A DNA stretch of 64,000 nucleotides from Patescibacteria group bacterium (GCA_038063415.1 JBBTVD010000006.1:137948-201947); one strand, 5' to 3'; positions 35,126-49,951 are shown, counted from the stretch's first letter. Notes: generated by a model not told the origin, from the letters alone. Numbers and translations are program-made.

Positions 35126-36133
35126 TTATGCTTTTTCTTCCTTAACAGGTTCTGAATCTTCTACTGATGCTTGCTCTCCTTCTGCAGCTTTCCCTTCAAT
35201 CTCAATTCGGTATTTCGTTAATTTGTAAGCAAGTCTTACATTTTGTCCATCCTTACCAATAGCCAAAGAAAGCTCTTCTTGAGGGACAAAAACGTGTGCA
35301 ATCTTTTCAGCTTCATCAAGCTCAACACGAACGTTTTTGGCAGGAGAGAGAGCCTGAACGATATAGGTTTTACTATCTTCTGACCATTGAATAATATCAA
35401 TTTTTTCAAGTCCACCCAATTCCTGGATAATTGCCTGTACTCGGACACCCTTCTGGCCGACACAAGAACCAACTGGATCAATACCAGGCTGTGCTGAATA
35501 GACAGCTACCTTTGAACGATTACCTGGTTCACGAACAACATCTTTGATCTCAACACTTCCTTGAGCAACTTCAGGGACTTCTCTTCTAAATAACTCTTCA
35601 AGCAGTCCATTTGCAGCTCGAGAAACGATAATCTCGTCCCCTTTTGTTCCCTGACGGATATCAACAAGGTAAAAAACGAGTCGTTGATTGAGATGATATT
35701 TCTCATTTTGGATTTGCTCAGAGACTGGCATGATTGCCTCAGCTTTGCCTAAATCGACAATAATATTGGGTCCGGCAAACCGAAGCACCATCCCATTGAC
35801 GAGTGTACCGATTTTCACTTTGTAATCTGAGAAAATTGCTTCTTTTTCTTTCTCACGAATTTTCTGAAGAATAACTTGCTTTGCTGTTTGAGCAGCGATT
35901 CTACCAAATCCTGGTGGTGTAACATCTTTATCTTCTTGGAGGATATGTGCTTCACCAGTATTTGGGTCAAGTTCTGCGGTGAAGGTTTCAAGGTCAGCTT
36001 CCGGGTGATCTTTACGGTATGCGGCAAGGATAGCGTTCTTGACTGTTTCAAGAACGACTTTGACGTCAACTCCTCTTTCTGAAGCGACTTGATTTAGAGC
36101 TAATGCAAATTCACTACGTTGTATCGCTGGCAT
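35126..36133 (-). CDS. nusA: transcription termination/antitermination factor NusA
   Basis: N-terminal domain, S1 (GTLVNGMVLRFA) and KH1/KH2 (SCVGQKGVRVQAI...AIGKDGQNVRLA). The start was chosen at M16 of the track ORF. Confidence 0.85.
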   Translation of the reverse strand: MPAIQRSEFALALNQVASERGVDVKVVLETVKNAILAAYRKDHPEADLETFTAELDPNTGEAHILQEDKDVTPPGFGRIAAQTAKQVILQKIREKEKEAIFSDYKVKIGTLVNGMVLRFAGPNIIVDLGKAEAIMPVSEQIQNEKYHLNQRLVFYLVDIRQGTKGDEIIVSRAANGLLEELFRREVPEVAQGSVEIKDVVREPGNRSKVAVYSAQPGIDPVGSCVGQKGVRVQAIIQELGGLEKIDIIQWSEDSKTYIVQALSPAKNVRVELDEAEKIAHVFVPQEELSLAIGKDGQNVRLAYKLTKYRIEIEGKAAEGEQASVEDSEPVKEEKA

Positions 36134-36247
36134 ATGGGTAAGTATACCAGAATGAGGGAAAACCTTCAAGCAGTGCATCTTAAGGGTTTGTTATAAAAGA
36201 TATAGTAAATACTTTCTCTTTTTAGTAGAATAATATAAATTTGTTTT

Positions 36248-36892
36248 ATGAACCGCATTAAGGTCTTTATCAGTTACTCGTCTAAGCAAAAAATTATTGG
36301 AGGAAGGTTTAAATACTACCTTAACAATTATTGTGGCTATGAAACTTTTATTGCACACGACGATATTCCGCCATCGTCTATTTTTGAGGAAGAAATATTA
36401 AAAGCAATTGAGAGTACCGATCTCTTTATTCCGCTACTTTCTGATAAATTCAAAACCTCTGACTTTACTGATCAAGAAACAGGAGTCGCAGTAGGTATGA
36501 AAAAGAAAATTTTTCCCATAAAGCTACAAGATCTCAACCCTTATGGCTTTATTAACAAATATCATGCTTTACAATATAAGGAATATCCATCAAATTATTT
36601 TCCCAAGGACAACAGTAAAGAACTTGTTCTAGCGATCGCTCAGGTGTGTTTAAAAAATGAAGTATATCGAAGTAAGGCAATTGACTCGCTCCTTTATGCC
36701 TTTTGTCGAAGCACTTCTTTCGAAATAACAAACACTATTATAGAGCTCCTTTCTCGTCATGATCAGATGACATCAGAACAGCTTGATAAAATTACTACGG
36801 CAATAAAGACTAATGTACAAATTTCTGGAGCATGGGGCTTAGAAGAATTTAAGAAATTCTTACATACTAAGTACAACTGGAGCATTGACTGA
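36248..36892 (+). CDS. TIR-domain protein (stand-alone, TIR + ~85-aa C-terminal helical domain)
   Basis: KVFISYSSKQK N-terminal TIR strand, an FIPLLSDKF...FTDQETGVAV core with a conserved Glu, and a unique C-terminal extension. It is markedly AT-rich relative to flanking genes, divergent from nusA and convergent with the Clp operon. Confidence 0.65.
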   Translation: MNRIKVFISYSSKQKIIGGRFKYYLNNYCGYETFIAHDDIPPSSIFEEEILKAIESTDLFIPLLSDKFKTSDFTDQETGVAVGMKKKIFPIKLQDLNPYGFINKYHALQYKEYPSNYFPKDNSKELVLAIAQVCLKNEVYRSKAIDSLLYAFCRSTSFEITNTIIELLSRHDQMTSEQLDKITTAIKTNVQISGAWGLEEFKKFLHTKYNWSID

Positions 36893-36922
36893 AGAAAGAG
36901 GTGCTTGTAAGATATAAATAAG

Positions 36923-37063
36923 ATGAAAACTAAAATGCAACAAGATACAAAAGAAAAATATGAGGAAGTTATTAAGCTTGTGAAAAAAGCTGAAAAAACT
37001 GCACAAAAATTTATAGAGGAAAATAAACGTACTGAGTCGAAGCTACGAATAGGGTACTCTTAA
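36923..37063 (+). CDS. possible 46-aa Lys/Glu-rich helical micro-protein downstream of the TIR gene
   Basis: Hand-found ORF MKTKMQQDTKEKYEEVIKLVKKAEKTAQKFIEENKRTESKLRIGYS. Purine-rich stretch upstream. It could be spurious. Confidence 0.2.
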   Translation: MKTKMQQDTKEKYEEVIKLVKKAEKTAQKFIEENKRTESKLRIGYS

Positions 37064-37089
37064 CAGCCTCTTTAGGATTTCTTTATAAT

Positions 37090-39501
37090 CTACTCCACAG
37101 AGATATCCAAAGCACCTGTCCCATTCAAAAAGAAATTAACTTTCTTTCCACGAGTAATATCCTTGGTTAGTGTATGTTGCGCAAGAAGATCCTCGATATT
37201 GTCCTGAATATACCGCCGAAGTGGTCTCGCACCAAAATCCTTATCAAATCCTTCGGAAACTATCTTTTCAATAACCGCCTCATCAAAAGTGACCGCAACA
37301 TCTTGCTCTGCCAAATGCTTTATCAGTTCATTCAGCATCAAATGAACGACTTTTGTTATTTGCTCGGGACCAAGTGGTTTAAAGGTAACCACATCATCAA
37401 ACCGATTGAGAAGCTCAGGTTTGAAAATCCCTTTTGTTTGTAAATACTGTACTAATTTCTGATGAAAAGCCTTATTAAAAGTCGTGCCGTGACTTAACTC
37501 CTCACGGATAAATTCTGAGCCAGCGTTGGAAGTGGCAATAATAATAGCGTTACGAAAAGATACTGTCTCACCTTTGTTGTCAGTCAAACGGCCATCATCA
37601 AGTATCTGTAAAAAGAGGTTATGAATTGCCGGATGTGCTTTCTCAAACTCATCAAGCAAGATAAGTGAGGCGGGATTATCACGTATTTGCTCTGTTAACA
37701 GGCCTCGTTCGCTTCCTTTACCAGGAGGTGAACCGAGAAGCCTTAGCAAGCCTGCTTCATCAGTATACTCACTCATATCAAAACGAATCATGTTTTTCTC
37801 TCCACCAAAGTAGTAACTTGCAAGCGCTTTGGCTGTTTCTGTCTTTCCTACACCAGTTGGCCCCAGAAAAAGGAACGATATTGGCCGCTCTGAGGTCATG
37901 ACACCAGAGCGTATACGACGCATTGCTTCAGCAATAGCGGTTACTGCATACTCTTGATCAATAAGCCGTTCATGAATCTTTTCTTCAAGATGCAGAAGGG
38001 TATTAATTTCTGATTGAGAGGGTGCGGCTATGGCTACATGGACTGTTTGTTCAACTTTTGTAATAACATCTTTCTCAAGTACGATTTTATGGTGCGTTTT
38101 TTCGAAAGTATCTGCATTGTCAGAGAGCGAGACCGTATTTGCCACTGTGCCAAGGAGTGCAATTGCACTTCCCGGAAGCACTTGATCCTGTAGGAATCGA
38201 TCGGCAAGCTCAACCGATGCAACAATTGCCCGATAACTAAGGATTACTTTGTATTTTTTTTCAATGACACTTGCTTCAGCAAGTACCATCTGCATTGTTG
38301 CTTCTTTGTCAGGCTCCTTCATCGGTATAATGGTAAAGGCTTCCTTTAAAGGATTCCTATCCATATAGGCCTTATAGCTACCAGTTGTCATGGTTGCAAT
38401 AATTGGCATATTGCCCGACTGGAGGTAAGGGAGAATAGCCCCTGAAAGATCAAGATTATAGGAAGTTGCGCCGACGATATTTTGAAATTCTGGAATATAA
38501 AGCACCACATCACTGGCATGTGAAAGCTCGCCAATAATAGCCTGTAGACGTACTTCCAAATCACTCCTGGTGGAAGCTCCAGCAGTGAGCGCACCGACAA
38601 GCAGTTGATAAAACTTCTTATAATTGAGGCCACCACCAAGATTACCCTCAAAACTATGATACGCCAAAGCTCGAATCAGATGTTCTTTTCCGACGCCACT
38701 TTCGCCAACAAGCAGTACATTATTACTTTCAAGTCTGAGAATACTCTCAAGCATCGTTTTGAATTCAGCCTCACGCCCTTTGATAAACGGTTCTCCACGA
38801 GTTGCGAGCGAGGTAAAGTCTGCTGTATATTTTTGGGTTTCGGGAGTCCAGCCATCAACTAATGCGTCACCAAACCCTCCCCCTTCAATATGTATTTGTA
38901 TTTTCTTCGGATTTTCTTCTTGAGGGAAAGCTACGCGTGCCCAAGTAACAATACTCACCAAATCCTGGGTTTTTAACTGCTTGGCAAATAATAGCTTGGT
39001 ATCTTTTTCAATCATAAGCAGATACGCAAGGAAAATATCAATCGTTGTTACATAGTTACCACGAAATGTTTTTGCTGTATCAAAAGCACTTTGTGCTAAT
39101 GTCTCACTTTTTAACGGTTCCAAAGGCAGATCTGTATGCGTAATTGTCGTTTTCTGCATAATTGCTTTTATTTGCGGATATTTAATAAGCTTCTGAAGAA
39201 TCTGGGTTGTTGTCTGACCTGTAGCAAAGCCATCAACTGCTTGTAACGTAAATGAATCATAGATTTTTTTACCATCGTTTTTTTCCACAGGAATTGCTGG
39301 TAAAACCCTGCTCACTTTATAATGGAAAAACAGTTCAATCATGACAAAAATATTAAAGAAGAATTGTGGGAGAACAGGAGAGAGACCATTGGTTAGATTA
39401 TAATAAAGAATGTAGACTAACAAGAAAAAGATAAGTAATCGGATACTCCGAAGCAAAGCATTTCTGTACCATTTATATAATTTTGAGTAAAGAACCATCA
39501 T
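37090..39501 (-). CDS. membrane-anchored Clp/Hsp100-family double-AAA+ ATPase (ClpC/ClpA-like)
   Basis: Two N-terminal TM helices, Clp_N-like repeats, NBD1 (LLVGESGVGKEHL) and NBD2 ([17 protein letters not shown]...LLDEFEKAHP...GRLTDNKG...ATSNAGS...GARPLRR). Confidence 0.75.
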   Translation of the reverse strand: MMVLYSKLYKWYRNALLRSIRLLIFFLLVYILYYNLTNGLSPVLPQFFFNIFVMIELFFHYKVSRVLPAIPVEKNDGKKIYDSFTLQAVDGFATGQTTTQILQKLIKYPQIKAIMQKTTITHTDLPLEPLKSETLAQSAFDTAKTFRGNYVTTIDIFLAYLLMIEKDTKLLFAKQLKTQDLVSIVTWARVAFPQEENPKKIQIHIEGGGFGDALVDGWTPETQKYTADFTSLATRGEPFIKGREAEFKTMLESILRLESNNVLLVGESGVGKEHLIRALAYHSFEGNLGGGLNYKKFYQLLVGALTAGASTRSDLEVRLQAIIGELSHASDVVLYIPEFQNIVGATSYNLDLSGAILPYLQSGNMPIIATMTTGSYKAYMDRNPLKEAFTIIPMKEPDKEATMQMVLAEASVIEKKYKVILSYRAIVASVELADRFLQDQVLPGSAIALLGTVANTVSLSDNADTFEKTHHKIVLEKDVITKVEQTVHVAIAAPSQSEINTLLHLEEKIHERLIDQEYAVTAIAEAMRRIRSGVMTSERPISFLFLGPTGVGKTETAKALASYYFGGEKNMIRFDMSEYTDEAGLLRLLGSPPGKGSERGLLTEQIRDNPASLILLDEFEKAHPAIHNLFLQILDDGRLTDNKGETVSFRNAIIIATSNAGSEFIREELSHGTTFNKAFHQKLVQYLQTKGIFKPELLNRFDDVVTFKPLGPEQITKVVHLMLNELIKHLAEQDVAVTFDEAVIEKIVSEGFDKDFGARPLRRYIQDNIEDLLAQHTLTKDITRGKKVNFFLNGTGALDISVE

Positions 39502-39503
39502 TG

Positions 39504-39881
39504 TTATAAAAATAATAACGCTAGTGTCAAAATAGGAAAGGCAAGAAAGCTGACAAAGATAATTGCTTCAAAAGTAAGGAGCATCAAGAACAGAACAACT
39601 TCAATTGGAATAAGCATTGTTTTGAGGGTAATTCCCATGGCTCTTGAGAAACCTACGAGGCCTTCACGATATTCATTTTTCAAAGGTTTGAAAAACGTTT
39701 TAATAAAGAGCGGTAAAGAAAATATTCGTAAAAACGCATCATTCACTGACCGCAAAAAGACAAACAATCCAACAGGAGCTTCTACATACCAAAAATGTAA
39801 AAAATGAAAAGGAAGAAAAGTATATTGTTTCATAGGGCAGCGTGTTGTTCTTAGTATAAAAAGTATGGGTGCAAAATACAA
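39504..39881 (-). CDS. small polytopic membrane protein (125 aa, ~4 TM)
   Basis: Hydrophobic. Its stop overlaps the start of the downstream Clp gene by 4 nt (ATGA), consistent with operon membership. Confidence 0.4.
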   Translation of the reverse strand: MYFAPILFILRTTRCPMKQYTFLPFHFLHFWYVEAPVGLFVFLRSVNDAFLRIFSLPLFIKTFFKPLKNEYREGLVGFSRAMGITLKTMLIPIEVVLFLMLLTFEAIIFVSFLAFPILTLALLFL

Positions 39882-39896
39882 CCTAACGAACCAGTA

Positions 39897-41588
39897 CTAG
39901 TATCCAAGCAGAGAAAATAGCTTCTGTAAAAACGATAGAATAAGCGACAAAAGTTTATAGACTAATCCTTTTTGACTTTCTTGCCCATCTGATTGCATAG
40001 TTTTGTTGGGATGATCAGAAGGAATGACCGTCATAACATCTGAAGGAGATACTGTTTGGAGAGACACGACAGGTGAAAGTGAAGCATCTTCTATTGGAGC
40101 TGTGGGGGTTAAGGATGGAGGATGGGTAGTAAGCGTTAGACATCCCCCAAGGCAATACATAAAACTCGTAGGAGTTGCTGAGGCTTCTGTTGTTGAAGGA
40201 GATGGATCACTGTAGCCTACTGCTTTTGCGGCGTTTATCCGTCCTGCTTGCCAAAACGTTCCTGTTCCTTCAATGTGATCAGCCGTCGCGTATAACCGCT
40301 GCACAACGTGGGTATTGGATCCACCATAAGCGGAATCCCATACCAATGCAGCAATGCCACTTACAAGAGGTGCGGCCATTGATGTCCCGGAAAGATAATC
40401 ATAGTTTGTTTGAAGAGACAAAACATTTTGCATACCAAAGGCGTGCGTGGGGAAAGTCGAATAACTATTTTCTCCAGGTGCGGATATTTGAACCCATGAA
40501 CCATGATTGGAAAAAATTGCTTTTTGATCAAGATTATTGGTTGCAGCAACAGACATAACATTGGTTAATGCTCCCGGATAAAATTTGGTAGTATTTCCCT
40601 GATTACCCACCGCAGCAACAACGAGCGATCCCTTTTCCCAAGCATAGGCTACTGCATCGGACTGTACTTGGGTAAAATCATTACCACCAAGGCTAATGTT
40701 AATAATATGTGCACCATTATCGACAGCCCAAATAATACCTTCCGCAACGACTGCCGTATCACTCATGCCATCGTCTCCGACTGTCTTTGCAATCAGTAAT
40801 TGACAACGAGGACAAGCGCCGGCAATACCTCGCTCGTTATTTGTCTTAGCAGCAATAACCCCTGCGACATGTGTCCCATGACCATATTTATCGTCAACCG
40901 TATTGGTAATAAAATTCTTCTGAGCAATCACTTGTGAGGCAATGTCTGGGTGCGTCAGATCAATGCCCGTATCAAGTACAGCAATCTTAATCCCCTCTCC
41001 TTGACTCACATCCCAAGCAGCAGTAATTTGGACATCGGCATGAGCGAGACCACTTTTCCCCTTTATTGTTTGGGCAGTATTCAGTAACCCCCATTGATTT
41101 CTAAAATAGGTATCATTGGGGATCATCTGAATCTGTTGTCGATAATTTTGCTCTACATAAGCAAGTAATTCCGACGCAAGAAGTGCATCCTCAAGCATTG
41201 TCTCTTGTTCTTCTGGAACGGAAATGACATAGGTGGAGAGGGCTGGAATTTTTTTCTCAATCTTGGCATTGTATCTTGTCAGCAAATCAGTCAATTGCGC
41301 TTCAGTAACACTCTCCTTTACCCGAATGACAAGTTGTCCCGCGATAGCGGTATTTTCTTTAGTTGATGATGGAACAATATTGACTACTGCATTTTGGTCA
41401 GGCATTTCGGAAGGACCAATTGTCGGAGAAGGACTTAAGGGGGAAGTATTGTTTGTAAAATAAGAAAAATAAAAAAATACACCAAGCAGGATAAAAAAGG
41501 TAATAAGTATTATGGGGATATGCAGGTTTGTTTTTTTACGAAGCTGCTCCGGAAGAGCCTCTGGAGGAAGCACTGAATGTTCTGACAT
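39897..41588 (-). CDS. membrane-anchored subtilisin-like serine protease (peptidase S8)
   Basis: N-terminal TM, propeptide-like region, catalytic triad contexts VLDTGID, HGTHVAGVIAA and GTSMAAPLVSG, plus a Ser/Thr/Pro-rich C-terminal tail. Confidence 0.8.
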   Translation of the reverse strand: MSEHSVLPPEALPEQLRKKTNLHIPIILITFFILLGVFFYFSYFTNNTSPLSPSPTIGPSEMPDQNAVVNIVPSSTKENTAIAGQLVIRVKESVTEAQLTDLLTRYNAKIEKKIPALSTYVISVPEEQETMLEDALLASELLAYVEQNYRQQIQMIPNDTYFRNQWGLLNTAQTIKGKSGLAHADVQITAAWDVSQGEGIKIAVLDTGIDLTHPDIASQVIAQKNFITNTVDDKYGHGTHVAGVIAAKTNNERGIAGACPRCQLLIAKTVGDDGMSDTAVVAEGIIWAVDNGAHIINISLGGNDFTQVQSDAVAYAWEKGSLVVAAVGNQGNTTKFYPGALTNVMSVAATNNLDQKAIFSNHGSWVQISAPGENSYSTFPTHAFGMQNVLSLQTNYDYLSGTSMAAPLVSGIAALVWDSAYGGSNTHVVQRLYATADHIEGTGTFWQAGRINAAKAVGYSDPSPSTTEASATPTSFMYCLGGCLTLTTHPPSLTPTAPIEDASLSPVVSLQTVSPSDVMTVIPSDHPNKTMQSDGQESQKGLVYKLLSLILSFLQKLFSLLGY

Positions 41589-41631
41589 ATCTTAAGCCTA
41601 CGAGAACCGTCTGCGTCTGTCAAGCCATAGA

Positions 41632-44600
41632 CTATTGCTGCGGCTGTAATGCTGCTCCGTTGATGTCAACGGGAGTAACAGCAGGAGCTGCTTGCTGTGG
41701 TTGTTGAAATGGAGTAGCAACCGGTGGTTGGAACACTGGCGTTGTTGGCTGCTCTGGCATGGCTGGCATCTGTGGGACTGTCCCAGATGCCGCCAATGAG
41801 TCAACCGTCACAACAGTAGGAATTTGAATAATTGGGTTCACCATTGCTGGTTGCTGAGCAATTTGCTCAAAAGGTGCTGGGTTTACCGAAGCGGGAGCAA
41901 TCGGGGCAGCAACCGCTGGAGCCTCTGTCCTCCCAAATGTACCTGCAACTGCATCAAGGATGAGCAACCCTACCATATCATTCTGTATTTTTGCTTGCTC
42001 CAATTGTTGTTTAAGCTGTGTAAGCTCTTCATTGGTCGTAGCCTCGGTTATAGCAAGCACCATAGCCGCAAGCTTATTGCTATTTTCGGCTTCATGGGAT
42101 ATCTTTGCCTGCAAGTCCGTGTATTGTGTTCTTTCTGCCTCTGATGCTGCTGCTATCGGATTAATCAACAGGTTCAGTGTTTGGCGAAGATCATTGACAT
42201 CAGCATTCTTTAGTTCCTCCGCAACTGCTGTAAGGATTTCTATTGCCAATGGATCTCCGTTTTTCTTTGCCAATTCTAGTTTGTTATATACATCTTGAAT
42301 ATCTGCATCTGAAGTAATATCAGTAATGGCCAATATTGCAGCTGCAAGTTGATGATTTTGTTTGCTGGCTTCCGTAATTTTCTCATTAAGCTGGCTAAAC
42401 TTCGCTTTATTCTCAGGAGAGGCCAGATAGAGTGGATTACTTAGTTGCCTAAAGATTTTTTTGTATTGAGAACCAGGATTGGCTGTTTTTGACTGAGCTG
42501 AGTCCGCTACCATTGCATTGACAGCTGCAAGCACATCTGTCGCGAATTCACTCCCCTGATTTTTTGCTTGCTCCAAATCATGCATCAGTGTCTCAATTAT
42601 CTGTGGTGGAGTGGCATCATTTACCGCCATGATGCTCACTGCAAGTTGATTTTGCTGTTGCTGTTCGGCAAGCAGTCGCTCATGAAGTGCAACAAACTTT
42701 TCTTTTTCTACCGGAGAGGTAACGGTAGCTGGATTAATAATCTGTAACAACACTTTCTTAAAGGTTGTCGCTGTTTGGATTTGCTTTGCAACACTATTTG
42801 CCAAATCCAACAATTCAATCGCAAAAGCATCCCCTTTCTTCTTTGCATCTTCAAGATCTTTACGAATCTTTTGAATCTCAGTGGTTGAAGAGGTTGAATT
42901 TACTGACAAAATTGCTGTAGCTGTCCCGTTGCCTCCAGTACTTGCTTGAACACATTTATCATGGAGTGCACTAAATTTCATTTTTTCTTCTGCATCCGTA
43001 ATACTTTCAGGCTGGGCAACTTTTTGAAGGACTTCTTTGAATTGTTCATCAGTTAGTACAATTGCCGTCTCTGAAGAAGTATCTTTGACGAAAACAAACT
43101 CGTTGGTATCAGTACTGTAATCGATAACGATCGTATCTCCAACAACAAATTTCTTCCCAATAATAGCAAGCGCAATTGGATTCTCTATGGCAGTTTGAAT
43201 CAGACGGCGAAGTGGACGTGCCCCATAGACAGGATCATAGCCATCCTTAGCAAGCTGTGCCACTGCTTTTTCGGTAATCTGGAGAGTATACCCTTCTTCT
43301 TTTAAAAGCTTTGCTGTCTTTGCAATTTCGAGACGGACAATGCCTGCCATATGCTCTGGTCGAAGTGGCTTAAAGATAACTACCTCATCAAAACGATTCA
43401 GCACCTCAGGACGAAGGAACTTCGTCAGCTCTTCTTTTACGATTTTTTGTAGATCCGTAAACTGTTTGTTGAGCTGTTCTGCTGTTGGCTTTGCTTGTGC
43501 ATCAATTGCACTGAGTTGTTGCTGAATGAGTGAACTTCCAATGTTGGAAGTACAAATCACAATGGTATTTTTGAAGGAAATAGTATTCCCTTTGTTATCT
43601 GTCAATCGACCATCCTCAAGAAGTTGCAAGAGGATATTGAAGACATCAGGATGTGCTTTTTCGATTTCGTCCATAAGCACAATTGAATAGGGTTTCTTTC
43701 GGACAGCTTCAGTCAGTACCCCACCTTCTTCATAACCGACATATCCGGGAGGAGCACCAATAAGTTTGGCGACTTCGTGTTTTTCCATGTACTCAGACAT
43801 ATCAAGCCGAGCCATCGCATCATCACGTCCAAAAAGTAATTCAGCTAAGGTCTTGGCAAGTTCTGTTTTACCAACACCAGTAGGTCCAAGGAAGATAAAC
43901 GAAGCAATTGGCCGCTTACCAGAAGCAAGACCAATTCGACCACGTCTGACAGCTTCAGAGACGGCACTTACCGCTTCTTCTTGATCAATCAATCGTTGGT
44001 GAATACGGTCCTCAAGTTTGAGCAATTTTTCACTTTCATCTTCAGTAAGTTTGGTAATCGGGATACCTGTCCATGCACTCACCACTTTTTCGATATCTGA
44101 CTTTTTGATTTGATTATCACCACGTTTCCCTCCATCCATTTGCAATTTGACTTCAGAAGAGGCTTCATCAAGTAAATCGACCGCTTTGTCAGGGAGATAT
44201 CGCTCACCGATATATTTCTTAGAAAGCTTGACACATTCCTTAAGCGCATCGTCAGGGATGGTTACATGATGGAATTTCTCATATTTAGGACGGATAACTT
44301 TGAGCATCTCAACGGCATTTTCTTCACTTGGTTCTTCAGCAGTTACTGGCTGGAAGCGTCGCTCAAAAGCTTTATCTTTTTCAAAATTTTTACGATACTC
44401 AGTCGTCGTGGTCGCTCCAATTAATTGAAAATGTCCACGAGCCAGATGTGGCTTGATGATATTGGCAGCACTCATACCTTCGTCACCACCAGCACCCATC
44501 AAGGTATGAATTTCATCAATGAAGAGAACGATTTTATTATTTGCACCAAGCACTTCGTTAATTACTCCTCGAAGTCTTTCTTCAAACTCTCCCCGGTGAC

Positions 44601-45621
44601 TTGCGCCAGCAACAAGGGAAGCTACATCAAGTTGAAAAATTCGTTTGTCTTGCAAATCTTTTGGTATTTTCCCATTTACAATCATTTGAGCGAGCCCTTC
44701 AACAATAGCAGTCTTTCCAACACCCGTCTCACCAATAATGATTGGGTTATTTTTGGTTCTTCGAAGAAGGATGTGGACAATACGGTCGACTTCCTTTTCG
44801 CGTCCAGCAACAGGATCAAGCCGTCCGGCTCGAGCCTCTTCTGTCAAATCAAGACCATATTTTTCAAGAATGGTCTTGTGACTATAGTTTGCTTTTGGAT
44901 TTTTTGATAGCTTATCAACAATAGCTTCTTTTTTGAGCCCCTTCTTTTGCAAATAAGCTCCTGTCGTATAGGTGGGAGAAGAAAGCACAATCAAAAGATC
45001 TTCAGGAGAAATAAAATTTGACCCACGCATCTTTGCATCGCGATATGCCTGATCAAAAACTTCTTGAGCAGTTTTGCTCAGAACTGGTTGTTCTTTAAAC
45101 GTACCCATTTTTTCGGCAGCTTGTACTTCTTTTGATAATGCCCCCCCATCTTGTTGAAAATCAGCTAGTAACTGGTAAATCTGCTGATCGTAAAGCAATC
45201 CAATAAGCAATTGATCAGGCTCTATAAACTGTTGTTTGATCCTTTTTGTCTCTTCCTGCGCATGTGTCAGTACTTGTGAAGTACGTGGATCTAAGTGACT
45301 AAGCGCTGAGACATCCGACGTAACGGGAGTCCCAGTATCCACATTGGAGGTTGAGACAGGAGTAGTTACTGCCGCAGGATCAGTTGTAGGTACTATGGTA
45401 GGATCGCTCGTTACAGTAGGATCAGTAGCGGACGGAGATGTGGGATCGCTTGCACTTGTTGAGGACGAAACAACTGGGGTTTGCGCCTGTGAAGGTGATG
45501 CCGTAGGTGCAGCAGAAGGCGGTGCTACTGGCTGTTGAGATTGATCCACTGGAGCTGCCGCTGTTGAATCAGCAGATGGATCATCTTTCCCTTTTTTTTG
45601 ATTGAAAATTCCTCCAAACAT
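41632..45621 (-). CDS. giant (1329 aa) Clp/Hsp100-family double-AAA+ ATPase with N-terminal Pro/Ser/Thr-rich region, Clp_N domain, and C-terminal ~370-aa array of ~72-aa repeats plus Pro/Gln-rich tail
   Basis: NBD1 ([18 protein letters not shown]...LFIDEIHTL), a short ClpA/C-type linker, and NBD2 ([17 protein letters not shown]...[14 protein letters not shown]...GRLTDNKG...CTSNIGS...GARPLRR). The C-terminal repeats read [LV]LQ.IxNPAxVTSPxEKEKFxxLHxxL...LAxxIxAxxDxT...IxxLxxxLExAKxxGxxxA. The same repeat family occurs in the adjacent membrane protein. Confidence 0.8.
41930..43040 (-). repeat. array of about five ~72-aa protein repeats (approximate DNA span) within the AAA+ ATPase gene
   Basis: Seen in the translation. 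Example unit: [78 protein letters not shown]. Confidence 0.6.
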
Positions 45622-45673
45622 AGGCAGTACTAGTACTATTAAATACTAATTTCAGAAAAAGGGCAAGGCCTTT

Positions 45674-48600
45674 TTACTCTTCACTTTTCATTTCTTTTTG
45701 CTCTTTTGTGCCTTGCTGAGCAGGAACGCTTATTTTTTGTTCTTCCTCGTTGGTCATTGCTTTGAGTACTGTTTCTGCTGCTTCACGTTTTGTTTGTAAA
45801 TAAGCAATAATTTCATTGAAAGAGAAGCCGCCCAGCAACAGGAATGGTAGAATATCGGTTACTTTTTTCATCCCTTCTTCTTTCTTTTCTTTCTCGGGTG
45901 AAACCAGTAAGTTAACCGTATCAGTCATTTGCTGCATATCGGCTTTTATCCAATCCATTCTTCCCTTATCATCTTCTGTATAACCTTGAGGAACAAGCAG
46001 TTTTTGATAGTTTTCTTCCCACATCTTCTTTACTTCTGTGTATTCTTCATTATTAACTTGTTGTGTTGTGTTTACCGAGGTGAGAAGGGCACTCCCCATA
46101 CTACCAAGAACTTTTGCCGCGATAGGATCATTATTTTTCTTTGCTTCTTGCAGTTGATCAAAAAGCTTTTGTATGTCTTGAGCAGGAGCCGTTTCTTTTA
46201 CCACCAATACTTGGGTGGCCGTAGCATTTCCATCAGTACTTGCCTTTGTTAGTTCATCGTGTAATTTGGTAAAGTATGCTTTGTCGGCATCAGACGAAAG
46301 TTTTTCGGGATGATTGATATGATCCAACACCTTTCGCAACTCTTTAAGAGTAACTACTTGATCAAGGACATTTACCACCTGTGTAGCAATTGGACTTCCT
46401 TGTTGTTTCTCAGAAGCAAGTTTTCCTTTTAATGTTTCAATATCGGCAACGGAGGTCTGATCACTCACTGCAAGAACCTGTGTCGCAAGTTCATTCTTCG
46501 ACTCGCTTTCTTTGACAAGGAATTCGTGTAGCCGTGTATAGAAGTCTCTCTCCGCCTCAACAGGAACTTTTGTAGGATCAGCAATTTGTACGAGTACGTT
46601 TTTTAGTTCTGCGAGTGTTAGTGCAAGCATTTCAACTTCTCCACTCAGATTCTGAGCTGCAGAAAGGATCGCACCAGCGGTGATATCTCCTTTTTGCCCA
46701 GCAAGCACCAAGCGTTCTCGTAATGCTTCATATTTTTCTCGTTCAGGACTCGCTGTTAGTTGCATTGGATTTGCAATATGGGTAAGTATCTCCTTTGCTT
46801 TAGCAACTCCCTCTTGCTGCGTTTTATCTCGTGAGAGTAGACGAGTTTCATACCGCGCAATATCACGCATTTTCGGGATCTTTAAATCAACGATGTTCAT
46901 AATGTCATTTGAAATAGTAGGAGTAACAACGGTTGTTTTGCTTATACCACTTGCTAACAAGCTCTCATCACCTTCCTCGGTACCGCTTGCAACTGAAGCT
47001 GAGTTACTTGCTGAGGGCTCATCCATAGTAGCAGCCATGGTTGCTTGATTTTCAGCTTTCCTCGTCGTGACGGTAACTTTCTCTTCCTCATCTTGCACAA
47101 GTGCAACGGATATCTCTTTGGCAGCATCTTGTTTTGCCTTCAGATATCCGACAACTTCTGTCTGAGAAAATCCTCCGACAAGAAGAAAAGGAAGAATGTC
47201 AGAGACTTCTTGCATTCCTTGATTAACGACATCAGGATCAGCAGCGGTAAGCATACCGACGATTTCATCTATCTTTGCGATATCATCACGAATCCATTCA
47301 CTTCTATTACCAGCCATGCCTTCTGGTACTTCAAGGTTTTGGTAATTCTCTTTCCACATATCCTTAATGGCCTTGTAATCCTGTTGGCTAACGTTCTGCA
47401 CTCGATTAACTGAGGGGAGAGAGACTCGGGCAGCTGTTTCTCCAACCTTAGCAAGCTCGGTCGCAATAGGCTCTCCCTTCTCTTTTGCCTGAAGAATTTT
47501 CTCTTGAAGTTTCTCAATATCTGCAGTTGAAGTTTTTTCTGTCATACCAAGAATTGATCCTGCAAGCTCATTTCCTTCTTTACTTGCTTTAGACAATGAA
47601 TCTTTAAGTTTAGTAAGTCTCTCTTTTTCAACAGGAGAGACTGCCACTGCTGGATTAGCAATTTGCTGAAGGACACTACGCACTTGCTCGGTTGATTGCA
47701 CTTGTTTGACTGACGAATCAATTGTTGACAAAACAGAGGATGCAACACTGTTCTCTTTGGCTTGCATAATCTGATTTTGAATCTTCTCAATCTCTACTGT
47801 TGAGGTTTTATCGGTAACCGAAAGGATAGAGGTTGCAAGCTGATTATTATTCTCTTTACTTTCCTTAGAAAGGGTATCATGAAGCTTAGTCATTTTTTCC
47901 CGATCAGCAACATTGGTAATAGAGGCTGGATTGGCAATTTGTTGTAGGACTGTTTGCATTTGAGCTGTACTTACTTGTTGCTTCTGTCCCCCTGAAATCG
48001 TATTCATAACACTCACCGCAACCTCCTGCTGTTTTGCCTGCATCAATGTATCTCGGATTTTTTCTACCTCTTTTGCCGAAGTGTTTTCATTTACGGACAA
48101 AATGGACGAAGCAAGGGCATTGTTATTCTCCTTACTTTCCTTAGAAAGCATTTGATTAAGCTTTGTCATCCGCTCTCGATCTACAATATTATTTACTGAA
48201 GCTGGATTTGCAATCTGTTGTAGCACATTTTTAATTTGACTATTGGTTGCCATTGATTGCGACATTGTACTTGCAGCATTCAAGATAGATGCTGCCATAT
48301 TATTCCCTTGCTGAGTCTCTTTACGTAATCGATCACGGAGCTGATTATATTGTTGTCTATCTGTTGTTGCTGTCACTGCCATAGGATTGGCAATACGTTC
48401 AAGTTTTTCTCGTACTTGTGTAACTTCTTGACGTTGACTTGCATCCTTTGATAAGAGTGCCGTTTCATATTTAGCAATATCACGCATAGAAGGAAGAGAA
48501 AGATTTGCTACATTTAATATTTGTGCATTTGCTTGCGAAATAGGCATGACACGAGGCTGGCTTGCAGACATTGTCGCAGGGGTAGTTTCATAGACAATCT

Positions 48601-49951
48601 CTTTTGCTTCACCAGCTGGCTGCAAGCCCTTTGGAATATTAAATTTCTTTGCAAAAGGGATACTCATGGCAATTCCGGCATCACCAGGAGGAGTTGGTGC
48701 AGGAGGCTGCCCACCAGGAGTGATAGGAGTTCTATTTGCCGTTGCTAGATTAACAAGGGTTTTCATGACGGCACTATCACCAGGAGCGAAATTAGCAGCA
48801 TAATCAAGAAATATCTGCAAGAGGATCCATGGCAATAAAATAACCACCCATAACATAATAAGCGCAACCACATAGAGCGCGAATGTTTCAGTTAGGTTCA
48901 CACTGTTCGTTGGCGTTACCAACTGCTGTGGACCACCAAGAAGGATATTGACCGCTGTTGGATAAATGATTTGATCAGCCTGATTGATACCTGGATTATT
49001 AAAGATGAGCGGGACACCGCCGCCTCCCTGTCCAGCAGCCCCTGCATTATCACTTTGCCATCGCCACATAGAGACGAGTCCTTTTAAGAATATAGCAAAC
49101 AGTGGTGCATAGAGTAACCATCGGAAGAATTCACCAATCCAGATTTTCCCTGTGTTCCGAGTAGGATAATACAAAAGAAGCAATGGGAAAATTGGTGAAA
49201 CAATAATAAAGAACCAAAGAATAATCTTACGCATGAGTAAAATTCCAACCATGACAAAATAGGTCAGAGCAGTAAGTTTTGTTAATAAAAGAGAGATAAA
49301 AGCGGATTCAGCATTGTAATCGCCTAAGAGCCTAAGGCCAACAAAATTTCGATAATCCCATCCCACATACAATAAATCTGCTTGAGAGATACAGTTGGGT
49401 GGACAAGAGAGGTCGCTTTGGTCATCTGATTTTAGGAAGAAGCCTTGGATAAGATCAGTAAACTGATAAAAGAACTGTAAAATAGAATAGGAAAAGACAA
49501 TAAGCAAAATAACAGCCACAAAACGAGGAATGAACCGCATAATAGTGAGACTCCGCCCCCGAGTAATGATGATGACAAGCGCTGTAGCAAGAATGACAAA
49601 AAAGAGTAAAGGCACAACAATACTAATAACAATGAGTGACCAGAATTGAGCAAGTGGATTATCACTATTATCACAAACACGTGCCTGGTTTTCTGTAGGA
49701 GCTTGCGTTTCAGTCACACAAACCCAGTTATAGTTTTGTAGGGTCCAATCAAGCATGTTTCCAGCTCTCGCAGCATTTTTTCCAATGAAGGTTACCTCTG
49801 GATCAACGACCCAATAAGCCCCTGTTGGCTGAGGATTTACCTCCTCATCGACAGCATAAGCAGGAGAAGAAAAGGATAAAGCTCCAATAAAAAGGACAGC
49901 TATAACTATAAACGGAACAAAAAAACGAAAATTGGGCAGTAATTTTTTCAT
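45674..49951 (-). CDS. giant (1425 aa) signal-peptide + ~6-TM membrane protein (VirB6/TrbL-like topology suspected) with a ~1000-aa C-terminal domain built from the same ~72-aa repeats, arranged as a two-fold tandem super-repeat
   Basis: Signal peptide MKKLLPNFRFFVPFIVIAVLFIGALSFSSPAYA, Cys-containing extracytoplasmic segments, six hydrophobic helices and a Gly-rich loop. The repeats read VLQQIANPASxxNxxDREKMTKLHDTLSKESKENNNxLAxSILSVxxKTSxxEIEKIxxxIMQAKE. Two super-repeats each end in ...MWxENYQxLxVPxG...DILPFLLxGGFSxxExxxYL. Confidence 0.75.
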   Translation of the reverse strand: MKKLLPNFRFFVPFIVIAVLFIGALSFSSPAYAVDEEVNPQPTGAYWVVDPEVTFIGKNAARAGNMLDWTLQNYNWVCVTETQAPTENQARVCDNSDNPLAQFWSLIVISIVVPLLFFVILATALVIIITRGRSLTIMRFIPRFVAVILLIVFSYSILQFFYQFTDLIQGFFLKSDDQSDLSCPPNCISQADLLYVGWDYRNFVGLRLLGDYNAESAFISLLLTKLTALTYFVMVGILLMRKIILWFFIIVSPIFPLLLLYYPTRNTGKIWIGEFFRWLLYAPLFAIFLKGLVSMWRWQSDNAGAAGQGGGGVPLIFNNPGINQADQIIYPTAVNILLGGPQQLVTPTNSVNLTETFALYVVALIMLWVVILLPWILLQIFLDYAANFAPGDSAVMKTLVNLATANRTPITPGGQPPAPTPPGDAGIAMSIPFAKKFNIPKGLQPAGEAKEIVYETTPATMSASQPRVMPISQANAQILNVANLSLPSMRDIAKYETALLSKDASQRQEVTQVREKLERIANPMAVTATTDRQQYNQLRDRLRKETQQGNNMAASILNAASTMSQSMATNSQIKNVLQQIANPASVNNIVDRERMTKLNQMLSKESKENNNALASSILSVNENTSAKEVEKIRDTLMQAKQQEVAVSVMNTISGGQKQQVSTAQMQTVLQQIANPASITNVADREKMTKLHDTLSKESKENNNQLATSILSVTDKTSTVEIEKIQNQIMQAKENSVASSVLSTIDSSVKQVQSTEQVRSVLQQIANPAVAVSPVEKERLTKLKDSLSKASKEGNELAGSILGMTEKTSTADIEKLQEKILQAKEKGEPIATELAKVGETAARVSLPSVNRVQNVSQQDYKAIKDMWKENYQNLEVPEGMAGNRSEWIRDDIAKIDEIVGMLTAADPDVVNQGMQEVSDILPFLLVGGFSQTEVVGYLKAKQDAAKEISVALVQDEEEKVTVTTRKAENQATMAATMDEPSASNSASVASGTEEGDESLLASGISKTTVVTPTISNDIMNIVDLKIPKMRDIARYETRLLSRDKTQQEGVAKAKEILTHIANPMQLTASPEREKYEALRERLVLAGQKGDITAGAILSAAQNLSGEVEMLALTLAELKNVLVQIADPTKVPVEAERDFYTRLHEFLVKESESKNELATQVLAVSDQTSVADIETLKGKLASEKQQGSPIATQVVNVLDQVVTLKELRKVLDHINHPEKLSSDADKAYFTKLHDELTKASTDGNATATQVLVVKETAPAQDIQKLFDQLQEAKKNNDPIAAKVLGSMGSALLTSVNTTQQVNNEEYTEVKKMWEENYQKLLVPQGYTEDDKGRMDWIKADMQQMTDTVNLLVSPEKEKKEEGMKKVTDILPFLLLGGFSFNEIIAYLQTKREAAETVLKAMTNEEEQKISVPAQQGTKEQKEMKSEE
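45720..48540 (-). repeat. two-fold tandem internal duplication (~1.4 kb each, approximate) inside the giant membrane-protein gene, each copy containing four ~72-aa repeats plus a conserved terminal module
   Basis: Protein segments ~470-960 and ~965-1410 align (IAKYETALLSKD / IARYETRLLSRD starts; DILPFLLVGGFS / DILPFLLLGGFS ends). Confidence 0.55.

What the first reader, a model, noticed from the sequence alone, without database searches (positions are those of the whole stretch)
36180..37089. Stand-alone TIR-domain gene on an AT-rich islet wedged between nusA and the Clp operon
The 214-aa protein has a clear TIR core (VFISYSS...FTDQE, with the glutamate in the expected NADase position) plus an ~85-aa unique C-terminal helical domain.

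Established knowledge: bacterial TIR proteins frequently act as NAD+-consuming effectors or signal generators in antiphage systems such as Thoeris ThsB, CBASS effectors and TIR-STING.

This one has no recognisable partner, although a candidate 46-aa Lys/Glu-rich micro-ORF follows it. It sits in a lower-GC patch by eye, which suggests horizontal acquisition into a conserved translation-gene neighbourhood.
Basis: partly seen in the sequence, partly recalled or inferred. Interest (0 to 1): 0.7.

Follow-up and report, generated by a model that had tools for sequence, protein, structure and literature searches.

The report
TIR enzyme gene with tiny partner
A groundwater Patescibacteria genome carries a mobile two-gene cassette, a probable NAD-destroying TIR enzyme fused to a DNA-sensor-like helical domain plus a conserved 46-residue partner protein, which is most likely an undescribed variant of bacterial anti-virus suicide switches.

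Summary
A 214-aa ORF (36248-36892, +) has a TIR domain (Pfam TIR_2, E 1.7e-12). Its catalytic-position Glu77 is conserved in 132 of 132 relatives. A roughly 90-aa helical C-terminal domain follows, and the gene lies between nusA and a ClpB-like gene in the lowest-GC 910 bp of the window.

Three points of the interpretation need correction.

- **Not stand-alone.** The 46-aa ORF (36923-37063) is a real partner. A homologous basic, amphipathic 45-54-aa ORF lies directly downstream of the TIR gene in every cassette locus that includes downstream sequence (35 besides the window, 32 distinct sequences).
- **C-terminal domain not unique.** It is homologous to the distal ssDNA-binding part of DARNA/PD-T7-3 (hhalign 95%, E 3e-8). 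The equivalents of DARNA F368 and Q403 are kept.
- **Mobility rests on comparison, not codon usage.** GC3 is average. The cassette sits in at least 16 different contexts and never beside nusA. A close relative has another gene in the same slot.

Distant family members sit inside type I restriction-modification operons.

Most likely this is an abortive-infection NADase triggered by infection-associated ssDNA and modulated by the small protein. NADase activity, the ligand and the partner's role are inferred, not shown. I rate it a new variant of a known kind, of moderate interest.

The parts
36179..36247 (.). AT-rich divergent intergenic region between nusA and the TIR gene. It presumably holds the cassette promoter. 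NCBI starts nusA 15 codons later, which would extend this region to 36134-36247.
   Evidence: P0065, 335-aa NusA annotation. The promoter scan is no better than shuffled sequence, so no promoter is claimed.
36248..36892 (+). Gene 1: a 214-aa TIR plus helical-sensor protein. NCBI names it 'toll/interleukin-1 receptor domain-containing protein'.
   Evidence: ORF; identical protein P0001 in a Patescibacteria MAG from Hainich groundwater; 58 further homologues at 38-68% identity, mostly full length.
36248..36610 (+). TIR domain (residues 1-121). It carries near-invariant F-x-A-H37-x-D39, S71-x-(F/W)-x-D75-Q76-E77-x-G79 and P98-Y-G100 motifs. The E77 codon is 36476-36478.
   Evidence: Pfam TIR_2 E 1.7e-12. 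Foldseek matches to SPARTA TIR-APAZ, SARM1, Cat1 and TIR-STING TIR domains at E about 1e-5. E77 aligns with the catalytic Glu.
36611..36889 (+). C-terminal HEAT/ARM-like helical domain (residues 122-214), homologous to the distal ssDNA-binding region of DARNA/PD-T7-3. Codons: F158 at 36719-36721, N189 at 36812-36814, Q191 at 36818-36820.
36893..36922 (+). 30-nt spacer between the TIR stop codon and the partner's start codon, consistent with one operon.
   Evidence: The same tight spacing, from overlap or abutment up to about 35 nt, occurs in relatives.
36923..37063 (+). Gene 2: a 46-aa basic (net +5, pI 9.6) amphipathic-helix protein, the conserved partner of the TIR gene. Motif: Y-x2-(I/V)-V-(K/R)-L-V-x-(K/R)-A-E-K-x-A-x-K-F-(V/I)-x-K-N...L-(R/Q).
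   Evidence: tblastn and HMM hits directly downstream of the TIR gene in all cassette loci, E 1e-8 to 1e-22. Gene-called as 46 aa in independent assemblies. No match in Pfam, PHROGs, PADLOC or Rfam.
35126..36178 (-). Left boundary: nusA, a lineage-conserved housekeeping gene. It is context, not part of the cassette.
   Evidence: Pfam NusA_N/KH_NusA. Homologues at about 85% identity across Microgenomates have other neighbours.
37090..39501 (-). Right boundary: an 803-aa ClpB-like AAA+ protein with a hydrophobic N-terminus. It is conserved together with the S8 peptidase in relative L166. It is context, not part of the cassette.

Best explanation
The interval 36180-37089 is a mobile two-gene defence-type cassette.

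**Components**
- Gene 1 encodes a catalytically competent TIR domain, a probable NAD+ glycohydrolase. It is fused to a short HEAT-like helical domain that is homologous to the ssDNA-binding tip of the anti-phage RNase DARNA (PD-T7-3).
- Gene 2 encodes a 46-aa basic amphipathic helix that always travels with gene 1 in Microgenomates.

**Proposed mechanism**
- In uninfected cells the TIR protein is monomeric or held in check, and inactive.
- During phage or plasmid invasion the C-terminal domains bind infection-associated single-stranded DNA. In DARNA this is ssDNA presented by phage SSB.
- Several protomers gathered on one strand bring TIR domains together.
- TIR-TIR assembly opens the E77 active site, NAD+ is destroyed, and the cell arrests (abortive infection).
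- The small protein most plausibly docks on the helical domain as a gatekeeper, either an antitoxin-like inhibitor or a co-sensor.

**Shown**
- TIR fold and conservation of the active-site motif.
- Homology of the C-terminal domain to the DARNA sensor, with the F368 and Q403 equivalents retained.
- Strict linkage with the partner gene.
- Cassette mobility.
- Association of the wider family with restriction-modification (R-M) operons.

**Inferred**
- NADase activity, the ssDNA trigger, oligomerisation, the abortive outcome, and the partner's role.
For: **TIR domain**
- Pfam TIR_2 scores above its gathering cut-off.
- Foldseek gives E about 1e-5 to NADase TIRs of SPARTA, SARM1, Cat1 and TIR-STING.
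- E77 aligns with the catalytic Glu.
- Conservation: E77 132/132, S71 131/132, Q76 130/132, H37 131/132, P98 and G100 132/132.

**C-terminal domain (CTD)**
- The confident model is a HEAT-like repeat.
- The PADLOC PD-T7-3 model is hit by 19 of 36 family CTDs (best E 6.7e-9) and PDC-S34 by 23 of 36.
- hhalign of the CTD family against the DARNA family gives 95.1%, E 3.4e-8. It aligns DARNA 351-431 with residues 141-214.
- F158 matches F368 and Q191 matches Q403, both DNA-base contacts. F368A abolishes defence (bioRxiv 10.64898/2026.02.22.705581).
- N189 matches N401 and is invariant in both families.

**Partner gene**
- It is present directly downstream in every cassette locus with downstream sequence. 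There are 40 loci, 5 of them copies of the window locus, and 32 distinct sequences. It is absent from about 110 distant relatives.

**Mobility**
- There are at least 16 distinct contexts, none of them nusA.
- The slot holds a different gene in L166.

**Defence association**
- In the close clade the cassette lies next to type I R-M (L006, L014/L016), a type ISP enzyme (L011), an AAA_15 ATPase with C5-methylase and Vsr (L176), and a Schlafen-like helicase with MazG and RadC (L177).
- In the distant clade the gene is embedded in hsdM-hsdS-TIR-hsdR order in about 10 loci.
- 28 of 110 distant members end in an SSB-tip-like DD(I/L)PF, which again points to SSB/ssDNA biology.
Against: - There is no experimental data for any family member.
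- The window's own neighbours are housekeeping genes. Only about 5 of about 20 independent close-clade contexts contain recognisable defence genes, and no background rate was computed.
- The DARNA W406 equivalent is Gly in the alignment, although an aromatic residue lies two positions later.
- The proximal DARNA helical region and the HEPN core that build its dodecamer are absent. ssDNA binding and the oligomerisation logic may therefore not carry over.
- The close-clade-only profile gives weaker homology to DARNA (65%, E 6e-5).
- Three loci place the cassette inside an NAD-salvage operon, and two contexts place it near NUDIX genes. This could indicate a metabolic role.
- GC3 is native-like.
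- The partner has no detectable homologue or fold assignment.
Confidence: 0.5

Rival explanations
1. Plain toxin-antitoxin (addiction) module. The TIR NADase is a toxin, continuously neutralised by the labile 46-aa protein. The pair stabilises itself or its neighbouring DNA, with no dedicated invader sensing.
For: Strict two-gene linkage with tight spacing. Mobility through many contexts. The small, basic, helical partner is typical in size for an antitoxin. NAD-degrading toxins with small immunity proteins are known (own knowledge: RES-Xre, Tne2/Tni2, SPN-IFS).
Against: The roughly 110 distant relatives keep the same TIR+CTD and lack the partner, so the enzyme can be controlled without it. 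The conserved DARNA-type sensor domain would be unnecessary for a plain toxin-antitoxin pair. The partner lies downstream and has no DNA-binding domain signature.
Confidence: 0.17
2. Housekeeping or metabolic NAD+/ADP-ribose enzyme: a regulated NAD glycohydrolase that feeds or balances the Preiss-Handler salvage pathway of these reduced genomes.
For: In L009, L012 and L096 the cassette sits inside an operon of NadD-like, PncB-like (QRPTase_N), PncA-like isochorismatase and NadE genes. NUDIX genes lie one or two genes away in L018/L090 and L178.
Against: The three NAD-operon loci are one lineage sharing one insertion (72-82% identical flanking genes). All other contexts differ. The gene is absent beside nusA in the three closest NusA relatives examined. 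About 15 of the 80 loci kept from the GTDB species-genome scan belong to the partner-bearing close clade, which suggests a patchy occurrence. The family is associated with R-M operons.
Confidence: 0.08
3. Thoeris-like signalling TIR (ThsB-type). It makes a cADPR-type messenger for an effector that is either the 46-aa protein or is encoded elsewhere.
For: Weak best hits among defence models are ThsB1 (PADLOC, E 7e-6) and Thoeris type III ThcB4 (NCBIfam, E 2.6e-6). Many new Thoeris types pair a TIR with one effector gene (bioRxiv 10.64898/2025.12.03.692087).
Against: Scores are far below curated cut-offs: 26.6 bits against 220 for ThcB4. No SIR2, SLOG, Macro, caspase, transmembrane or other effector gene lies within about 10 kb. 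The partner is a soluble 46-aa helix with no transmembrane segment or enzymatic domain. The fused sensor domain resembles single-protein effectors such as DARNA.
Confidence: 0.08
4. Non-enzymatic TIR scaffold: a protein-interaction adaptor rather than an NADase.
For: TIR domains of animal receptors act as scaffolds. Foldseek also finds TLR, MyD88 and Hydra TRR-2 TIR domains.
Against: The catalytic-position Glu is conserved in all 132 non-redundant members and the surrounding S-x-(W/F)-x-D-Q-E-x-G motif is near-invariant. That is the pattern expected of an active site.
Confidence: 0.05

Closest known systems
DARNA / PD-T7-3 (PDB 9wxf 'Dandelion'; P2-EC30 Z-region ORF1), an ssDNA-activated HEPN tRNase
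   Same: Both are single-polypeptide designs: an N-terminal toxic effector plus a C-terminal all-helical sensor. The sensor ends are homologous (hhalign 95%, E 3.4e-8). The DNA-base-contacting F368 and Q403 and the invariant N401 are retained as F158, Q191 and N189. Both families are carried on mobile DNA.
   Different: The effector is a TIR domain rather than a HEPN RNase. There is no R-x4-H motif, and residues 1-121 are a TIR fold. Only the distal ~80-110 residues of DARNA's roughly 300-residue helical domain are present. W406 is not conserved in register. The Patescibacteria clade has an extra 46-aa partner gene, whereas DARNA is a single gene.
Single-chain or complexed TIR NADase effectors activated by oligomerisation (SPARTA TIR-APAZ, Cat1, TIR-STING, TIR-SAVED, SARM1)
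   Same: These are the best structural matches of the TIR domain (E about 1e-5) and the best sequence match among solved structures (Cat1, E 9.4e-5). The Glu sits in the same position. The logic of a ligand-binding domain driving TIR assembly is the same.
   Different: The sensor is neither APAZ/pAgo, CARF, STING, SAVED nor ARM-SAM. No cyclase, CRISPR or Argonaute gene is nearby. The predicted ligand is ssDNA rather than a cyclic nucleotide or a guide-target duplex.
Thoeris ThsB / type III ThcB4
   Same: These are bacterial TIR_2-type domains and the weak top hits among defence models.
   Different: The protein is far below the curated cut-offs. There is no ThsA-type effector. A fused sensor domain and a micro-protein partner are present instead.
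PrrC-type effectors embedded in type I R-M (hsd) operons
   Same: Distant members of this TIR family sit between hsdS and hsdR, as the anticodon nuclease PrrC does in the prr locus (own knowledge; PrrC regulation is mentioned).
   Different: The effector and sensor are different. The window's clade is not embedded in hsd operons; it only sometimes lies next to them.

Membership tests
TIR domain superfamily (Pfam TIR_2, PF13676) | Sequence score above the curated gathering threshold | tested here: met
   48.3 bits against a cut-off of 28, E 1.7e-12, residues 6-110.
TIR domain superfamily (Pfam TIR_2, PF13676) | Flavodoxin-like TIR fold | tested here: met
   AF2 model with pLDDT 91.4. Foldseek probability 1.00 to many solved TIR domains.
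Catalytic (NADase-type) TIRs | Conserved Glu in the catalytic position | tested here: met
   E77 aligns with the catalytic Glu of SARM1/TIR-1 and Cat1. It is conserved in 132 of 132 members.
Catalytic (NADase-type) TIRs | NAD+ cleavage activity | not testable with these tools
   Needs a biochemical assay.
Thoeris (ThsB plus effector) | TIR protein reaches a curated ThsB/ThcB model cut-off | tested here: not met
   NCBIfam ThcB4 gives 26.6 bits against a cut-off of 220. PADLOC ThsB1 gives only E 7e-6 and partial coverage.
Thoeris (ThsB plus effector) | Adjacent effector gene (SIR2/SLOG, Macro, caspase-like, transmembrane, etc.) | tested here: not met
   The called genes and their Pfam families within about 10 kb are nusA, infB, Clp-like ATPases, an S8 peptidase, PNPase and others. 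The only linked gene is the 46-aa ORF.
DARNA / PD-T7-3 | N-terminal HEPN RNase with R-x4-H motif | tested here: not met
   The N-terminal domain is a TIR. hhalign aligns only the C-terminal region.
DARNA / PD-T7-3 | C-terminal helical domain with ssDNA-contact residues (F368, D372, Q403, W406) | tested here: inconclusive
   Homology of the region is supported (95%, E 3.4e-8). F368 and Q403 are conserved, D372 becomes N162, and W406 becomes G194 with an aromatic at 196. ssDNA binding itself was not tested.
CBASS / TIR-SAVED / TIR-STING effectors | SAVED or STING ligand domain and a neighbouring CD-NTase | tested here: not met
   Only the TIR portion matches SAVED_TIR models. The CTD is a HEAT-like repeat. 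No cyclase is in the neighbourhood.
SPARTA (short pAgo + TIR-APAZ) | APAZ domain and an adjacent short Argonaute | tested here: not met
   Structural matches are confined to about 160-180 aligned columns centred on the TIR domain. No pAgo gene is present.
Type II toxin-antitoxin modules | Two small co-transcribed genes, one toxic, one neutralising by direct binding | tested here: inconclusive
   Two tightly spaced, co-inherited genes are shown. Toxicity, binding and neutralisation are not testable here.

The most novel reading that the evidence does not exclude
The family may be an effector-swapped sibling of DARNA: an ssDNA/SSB-sensing module that fires a TIR NADase instead of a HEPN RNase. 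If so, the Patescibacteria clade has added a new kind of 46-aa basic helical regulator. Other clades instead carry an SSB C-terminal-tip mimic (DDIPF) on the same protein. That would tie TIR immunity directly to the replication-fork/SSB interactome, and it would give one of the few non-restriction defence systems proposed for CPR bacteria.
Probability: 0.3. Interest if true: 0.75.

Novelty: new variant of a known kind. Interest (0 to 1): 0.55.

Why it matters
- **Effector swapping.** The same DARNA-type sensor would be shown to drive two unrelated suicide effectors, HEPN and TIR. That gives a testable trigger (ssDNA or SSB-ssDNA) for a widespread but unnamed TIR family. Confirmed relatives number 194 in GTDB species genomes and 430 or more metagenome stretches.
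- **Micro-protein regulators.** A strictly conserved 46-aa partner is exactly the kind of gene that automated annotation and defence catalogues overlook.
- **CPR immunity.** It would add a candidate abortive-infection system to Patescibacteria, whose defence repertoire is thought to be small.
- **SSB-tip-like tails.** These tails in other clades suggest a direct link between TIR immunity and the SSB interactome.

Tried and rejected
1. **Conserved synteny with nusA (housekeeping paralogue).** Rejected. nusA, infB and Clp are found only in copies of the window's own contig. NusA relatives have other upstream genes.
2. **Micro-ORF as chance ORF or RNA element.** Rejected. It is conserved at the protein level in 32 distinct sequences and has no Rfam match.
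3. **Micro-protein as a split-off piece of the N-terminal extensions of distant homologues, or of DARNA.** No similarity was found.
4. **Micro-protein related to NAD synthase.** A PDB hit to 8cnz scored E 0.008 over only 19 residues. It was not reproduced against the NadE next to the cassette (probability 0.3%). I judged it chance.
5. **Mobile-element scars.** No flanking direct or inverted repeats were found. Promoter and terminator scans were at chance level.
6. **Foreign codon usage.** GC3 equals the genome mean.
7. **Phage origin.** PHROGs gives only a weak hit to a TIR family of unknown function.
8. **CTD fold search against solved structures.** It returned only generic HEAT/ARM repeats. 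The DARNA structure was not in the structural libraries, so the link rests on sequence profiles.
9. **phmmer with the CTD alone against 1.84 billion representatives.** It found only the same family (19 hits).
10. **Literature searches.** Searches for PDC-S34, TIR genes in hsd operons and TIR/SSB-tail links found no description of this family.

Full report
**What is there.** The window is from a Patescibacteria (Microgenomates-type) metagenome-assembled genome from Hainich groundwater.

- nusA lies at 35126-36178 (-) and an 803-aa ClpB-like gene at 37090-39501 (-). Between them are two plus-strand ORFs, in a stretch where the neighbouring genes shown (about 10 kb each side) are all on the minus strand.
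- The two ORFs are a 214-aa ORF (36248-36892) and a 46-aa ORF (36923-37063), separated by 30 nt.
- The interval 36180-37089 has 32.3% GC against 40.2% for the window. It is the lowest of all 910-bp windows (sd 2.4%).
- GC3 of the 214-aa ORF (0.322) equals the mean of the window's 55 genes (0.320). The AT-richness therefore reflects amino-acid composition and intergenic DNA, not foreign codon usage.

**The TIR domain.**

- Residues 6-110 match Pfam TIR_2 above its gathering threshold (48.3 bits against 28).
- An AlphaFold2 model built on 41 homologues is confident (pLDDT 91.4, pTM 0.89). It shows a TIR fold followed by six helices at residues 123-209.
- Foldseek places the TIR nearest to NAD-cleaving TIRs: SPARTA TIR-APAZ, SARM1, Cat1 and TIR-STING (E about 1e-5, about 20% identity).
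- A profile search of PDB sequences finds Cat1 first and aligns E77 with the catalytic Glu of SARM1/TIR-1 and Cat1.
- Across 132 non-redundant family members, conservation is E77 132/132, S71 131, Q76 130, H37 131, D39 130, and P98 and G100 132. This is the signature of an active enzyme.
- No curated defence-family model is reached. NCBIfam ThcB4 gives 26.6 bits against 220, and the PADLOC ThsB hits are weak and partial.

**The partner gene.**

- A homologue of the 46-aa ORF lies just after the TIR stop codon (overlapping or abutting it, up to about 35 nt downstream) on the same strand in every close relative whose contig extends that far.
  - 14 are from GTDB genomes (L006-L020).
  - 17 are from metagenomes (L086-L102).
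  - 4 come from look-ups (L176-L179).
- In total there are 40 loci, 5 of them copies of the window locus, with 32 distinct sequences. The proteins are 45-54 aa (one is cut short at 27 aa by the contig end), all basic (net +3 to +12, pI 9.1-10.7), with a strongly amphipathic central helix and a conserved AEK-x-A-x-K-F-V-x-K-N core.
- An HMM of the partner finds nothing in roughly 110 distant relatives.
- It has no match in Pfam, PHROGs, PADLOC, NCBIfam or Rfam.
- 'Stand-alone' is therefore wrong. In this clade the unit is a two-gene cassette.

**Mobility.**

- None of the cassette loci has nusA, infB or Clp nearby.
- The 32 loci analysed fall into 23 context groups, with at least 16 distinct where flanks exist.
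- From the nusA side:
  - L166 (NusA 86% identical) keeps S8 peptidase-p109-Clp803 and nusA-infB. The slot holds an unrelated 584-aa orphan gene on the same strand as its neighbours.
  - Two further relatives have other genes upstream of nusA.
- No repeats flank the islet.
- The insertion claim is therefore supported by comparison, not by composition.

**Context elsewhere.**

- In the close clade the neighbours include:
  - type I restriction-modification (R-M) systems (L006; L014/L016, with RadC);
  - a type ISP enzyme (L011);
  - an AAA_15 ATPase plus C5 methylase and Vsr (L176);
  - a Schlafen-like helicase with MazG-like and RadC genes (L177).
- Other contexts are ordinary genes.
- One lineage (L009, L012, L096) has the cassette inside an NAD-salvage operon: NadD-like, PncB-like, PncA-like and a bona fide NadE.
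- NUDIX genes lie close in L018/L090 and L178.
- The wider family (28-38% identity over residues ~4-200) occurs in very diverse bacteria and archaea.
  - Many members carry N-terminal extensions of two types, and about 40% have none.
  - About 10 loci have the gene in hsdM-hsdS-TIR-hsdR order.

**The C-terminal domain (CTD).**

- Sequence profiles are more specific. 23 of 36 family CTDs hit PADLOC PDC-S34 and 19 of 36 hit PD-T7-3, with best E 6.7e-9.
- PD-T7-3 is DARNA, an ssDNA-activated HEPN tRNase. The distal part of its C-terminal domain reads ssDNA bases through F368, D372, Q403 and W406, and it responds to ssDNA presented by phage SSB (bioRxiv 10.64898/2026.02.22.705581).
- I recovered the DARNA sequence from the P2-EC30 Z-region. 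All 15 residues named in the paper map onto it. The PDB entry 9wxf ('Dandelion') shares the segment.
- With five plasmid homologues added, hhalign of the TIR-family CTD profile against the DARNA family gives 95.1% probability and E 3.4e-8 over 77 columns. DARNA 351-431 aligns with residues 141-214 here.
- The close-clade profile alone gives 65%, E 6e-5.
- Residue equivalences:
  - F158 matches F368; position 158 is aromatic in about 85% of the family.
  - Q191 matches Q403.
  - N189 matches N401, which is invariant in both families.
  - D372 becomes N162.
  - W406 is not conserved in register.
- The DARNA preprint does not mention TIR relatives.

**Mechanism.** The best-supported reading is an effector-swapped relative of DARNA.

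- The helical tip senses infection-associated ssDNA.
- Several protomers on one strand bring TIR domains together, which is the usual way TIR NADases are switched on (established for SARM1, SPARTA, Cat1 and TIR-STING).
- NAD+ is depleted.
- The 46-aa basic helix probably docks on the helical domain as a gatekeeper.

Only the domain identities, motif conservation, homology, linkage and mobility are shown. Activity, ligand, oligomerisation and the partner's role are inferences. I put about 0.5 on the overall explanation, and less, about 0.3-0.35, on ssDNA specifically being the trigger.

**Rivals.**

- A plain toxin-antitoxin pair is the main rival. However, distant relatives keep the enzyme without the partner.
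- A metabolic NADase fits the NAD-operon lineage but not the patchy, shifting distribution.
- A Thoeris-like signalling TIR lacks an effector and reaches no cut-off.
- A non-catalytic scaffold is contradicted by the invariant active-site motif.

**Novelty and interest.** TIR effectors and sensor-effector swapping are known kinds. This family, its DARNA-type sensor and its micro-protein partner appear undescribed in the libraries and papers searched. I rate it a new variant of a known kind, of moderate interest (0.55). It offers a concrete, testable trigger hypothesis.

Noticed in passing
L057, L075, L080, L081, L058, L065, L042, L031 and others (C-termini of the TIR genes, e.g. L075:7737-8663): 28 of 110 distant-clade TIR-CTD proteins end in an acidic-(I/L/V)-P-F carboxy terminus (…DDDIPF, …WDDIPF, …TDEIPF). 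This is the motif of the bacterial SSB C-terminal tip. The window's clade lacks it and has the 46-aa partner instead.
   Followed up: partly
L009:3834-7148, L012:5131-10153, L096:3811-5429: In one Microgenomates lineage the TIR + micro-ORF cassette is inserted inside an NAD-salvage operon (NadD-like, PncB-like QRPTase_N, PncA-like isochorismatase, NH3-dependent NadE). NUDIX genes lie one or two genes upstream in L018/L090 and L178.
   Followed up: partly
L030:3718-12062, L042, L044, L049, L063, L064, L068, L074: Distant family members sit between hsdS and hsdR of type I restriction-modification operons (order hsdM-hsdS-TIR-hsdR), reminiscent of PrrC in the prr locus.
   Followed up: partly
L166:5209-6963: In the closest syntenic relative (NusA 86% identical), the same Clp803-nusA slot holds a 584-aa orphan protein with no Pfam or PHROGs match. 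The slot looks like a variable hotspot.
   Followed up: partly
window 37090-49951 (-): There is a cluster of unusual large AAA+ proteins. It comprises an 803-aa ClpB-like protein with a hydrophobic N-terminus, a 125-aa membrane-like protein, an S8 peptidase, a 1329-aa Clp_N/ClpB-like protein and a 1425-aa protein. The part from the S8 peptidase to Clp803 is conserved in L166.
   Followed up: no
L169:412-1776 (phage P2-EC30 Z-region ORF1): This 2002-era 'hypothetical protein' of a P2 prophage hotspot is DARNA/PD-T7-3. All 15 residues named in the 2026 preprint map exactly from Met17 of the annotated ORF. PDB entries 9wxf and 9wwz, named 'Dandelion', share the sequence segment.
   Followed up: yes
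window 39000-40000: A second low-GC stretch (0.32-0.35) covers the 125-aa ORF and the 5' part of the Clp803 gene. Low GC by itself is therefore not unique to the TIR islet at a finer window size.
   Followed up: no
window 36923-37060 (profile A5): The micro-protein profile's best PDB hit is a 'NAD_synthase domain-containing protein' (8cnz), with E 0.008 over 19 residues. It was not reproduced against the NadE adjacent to the cassette in L009, so it is probably chance.
   Followed up: yes
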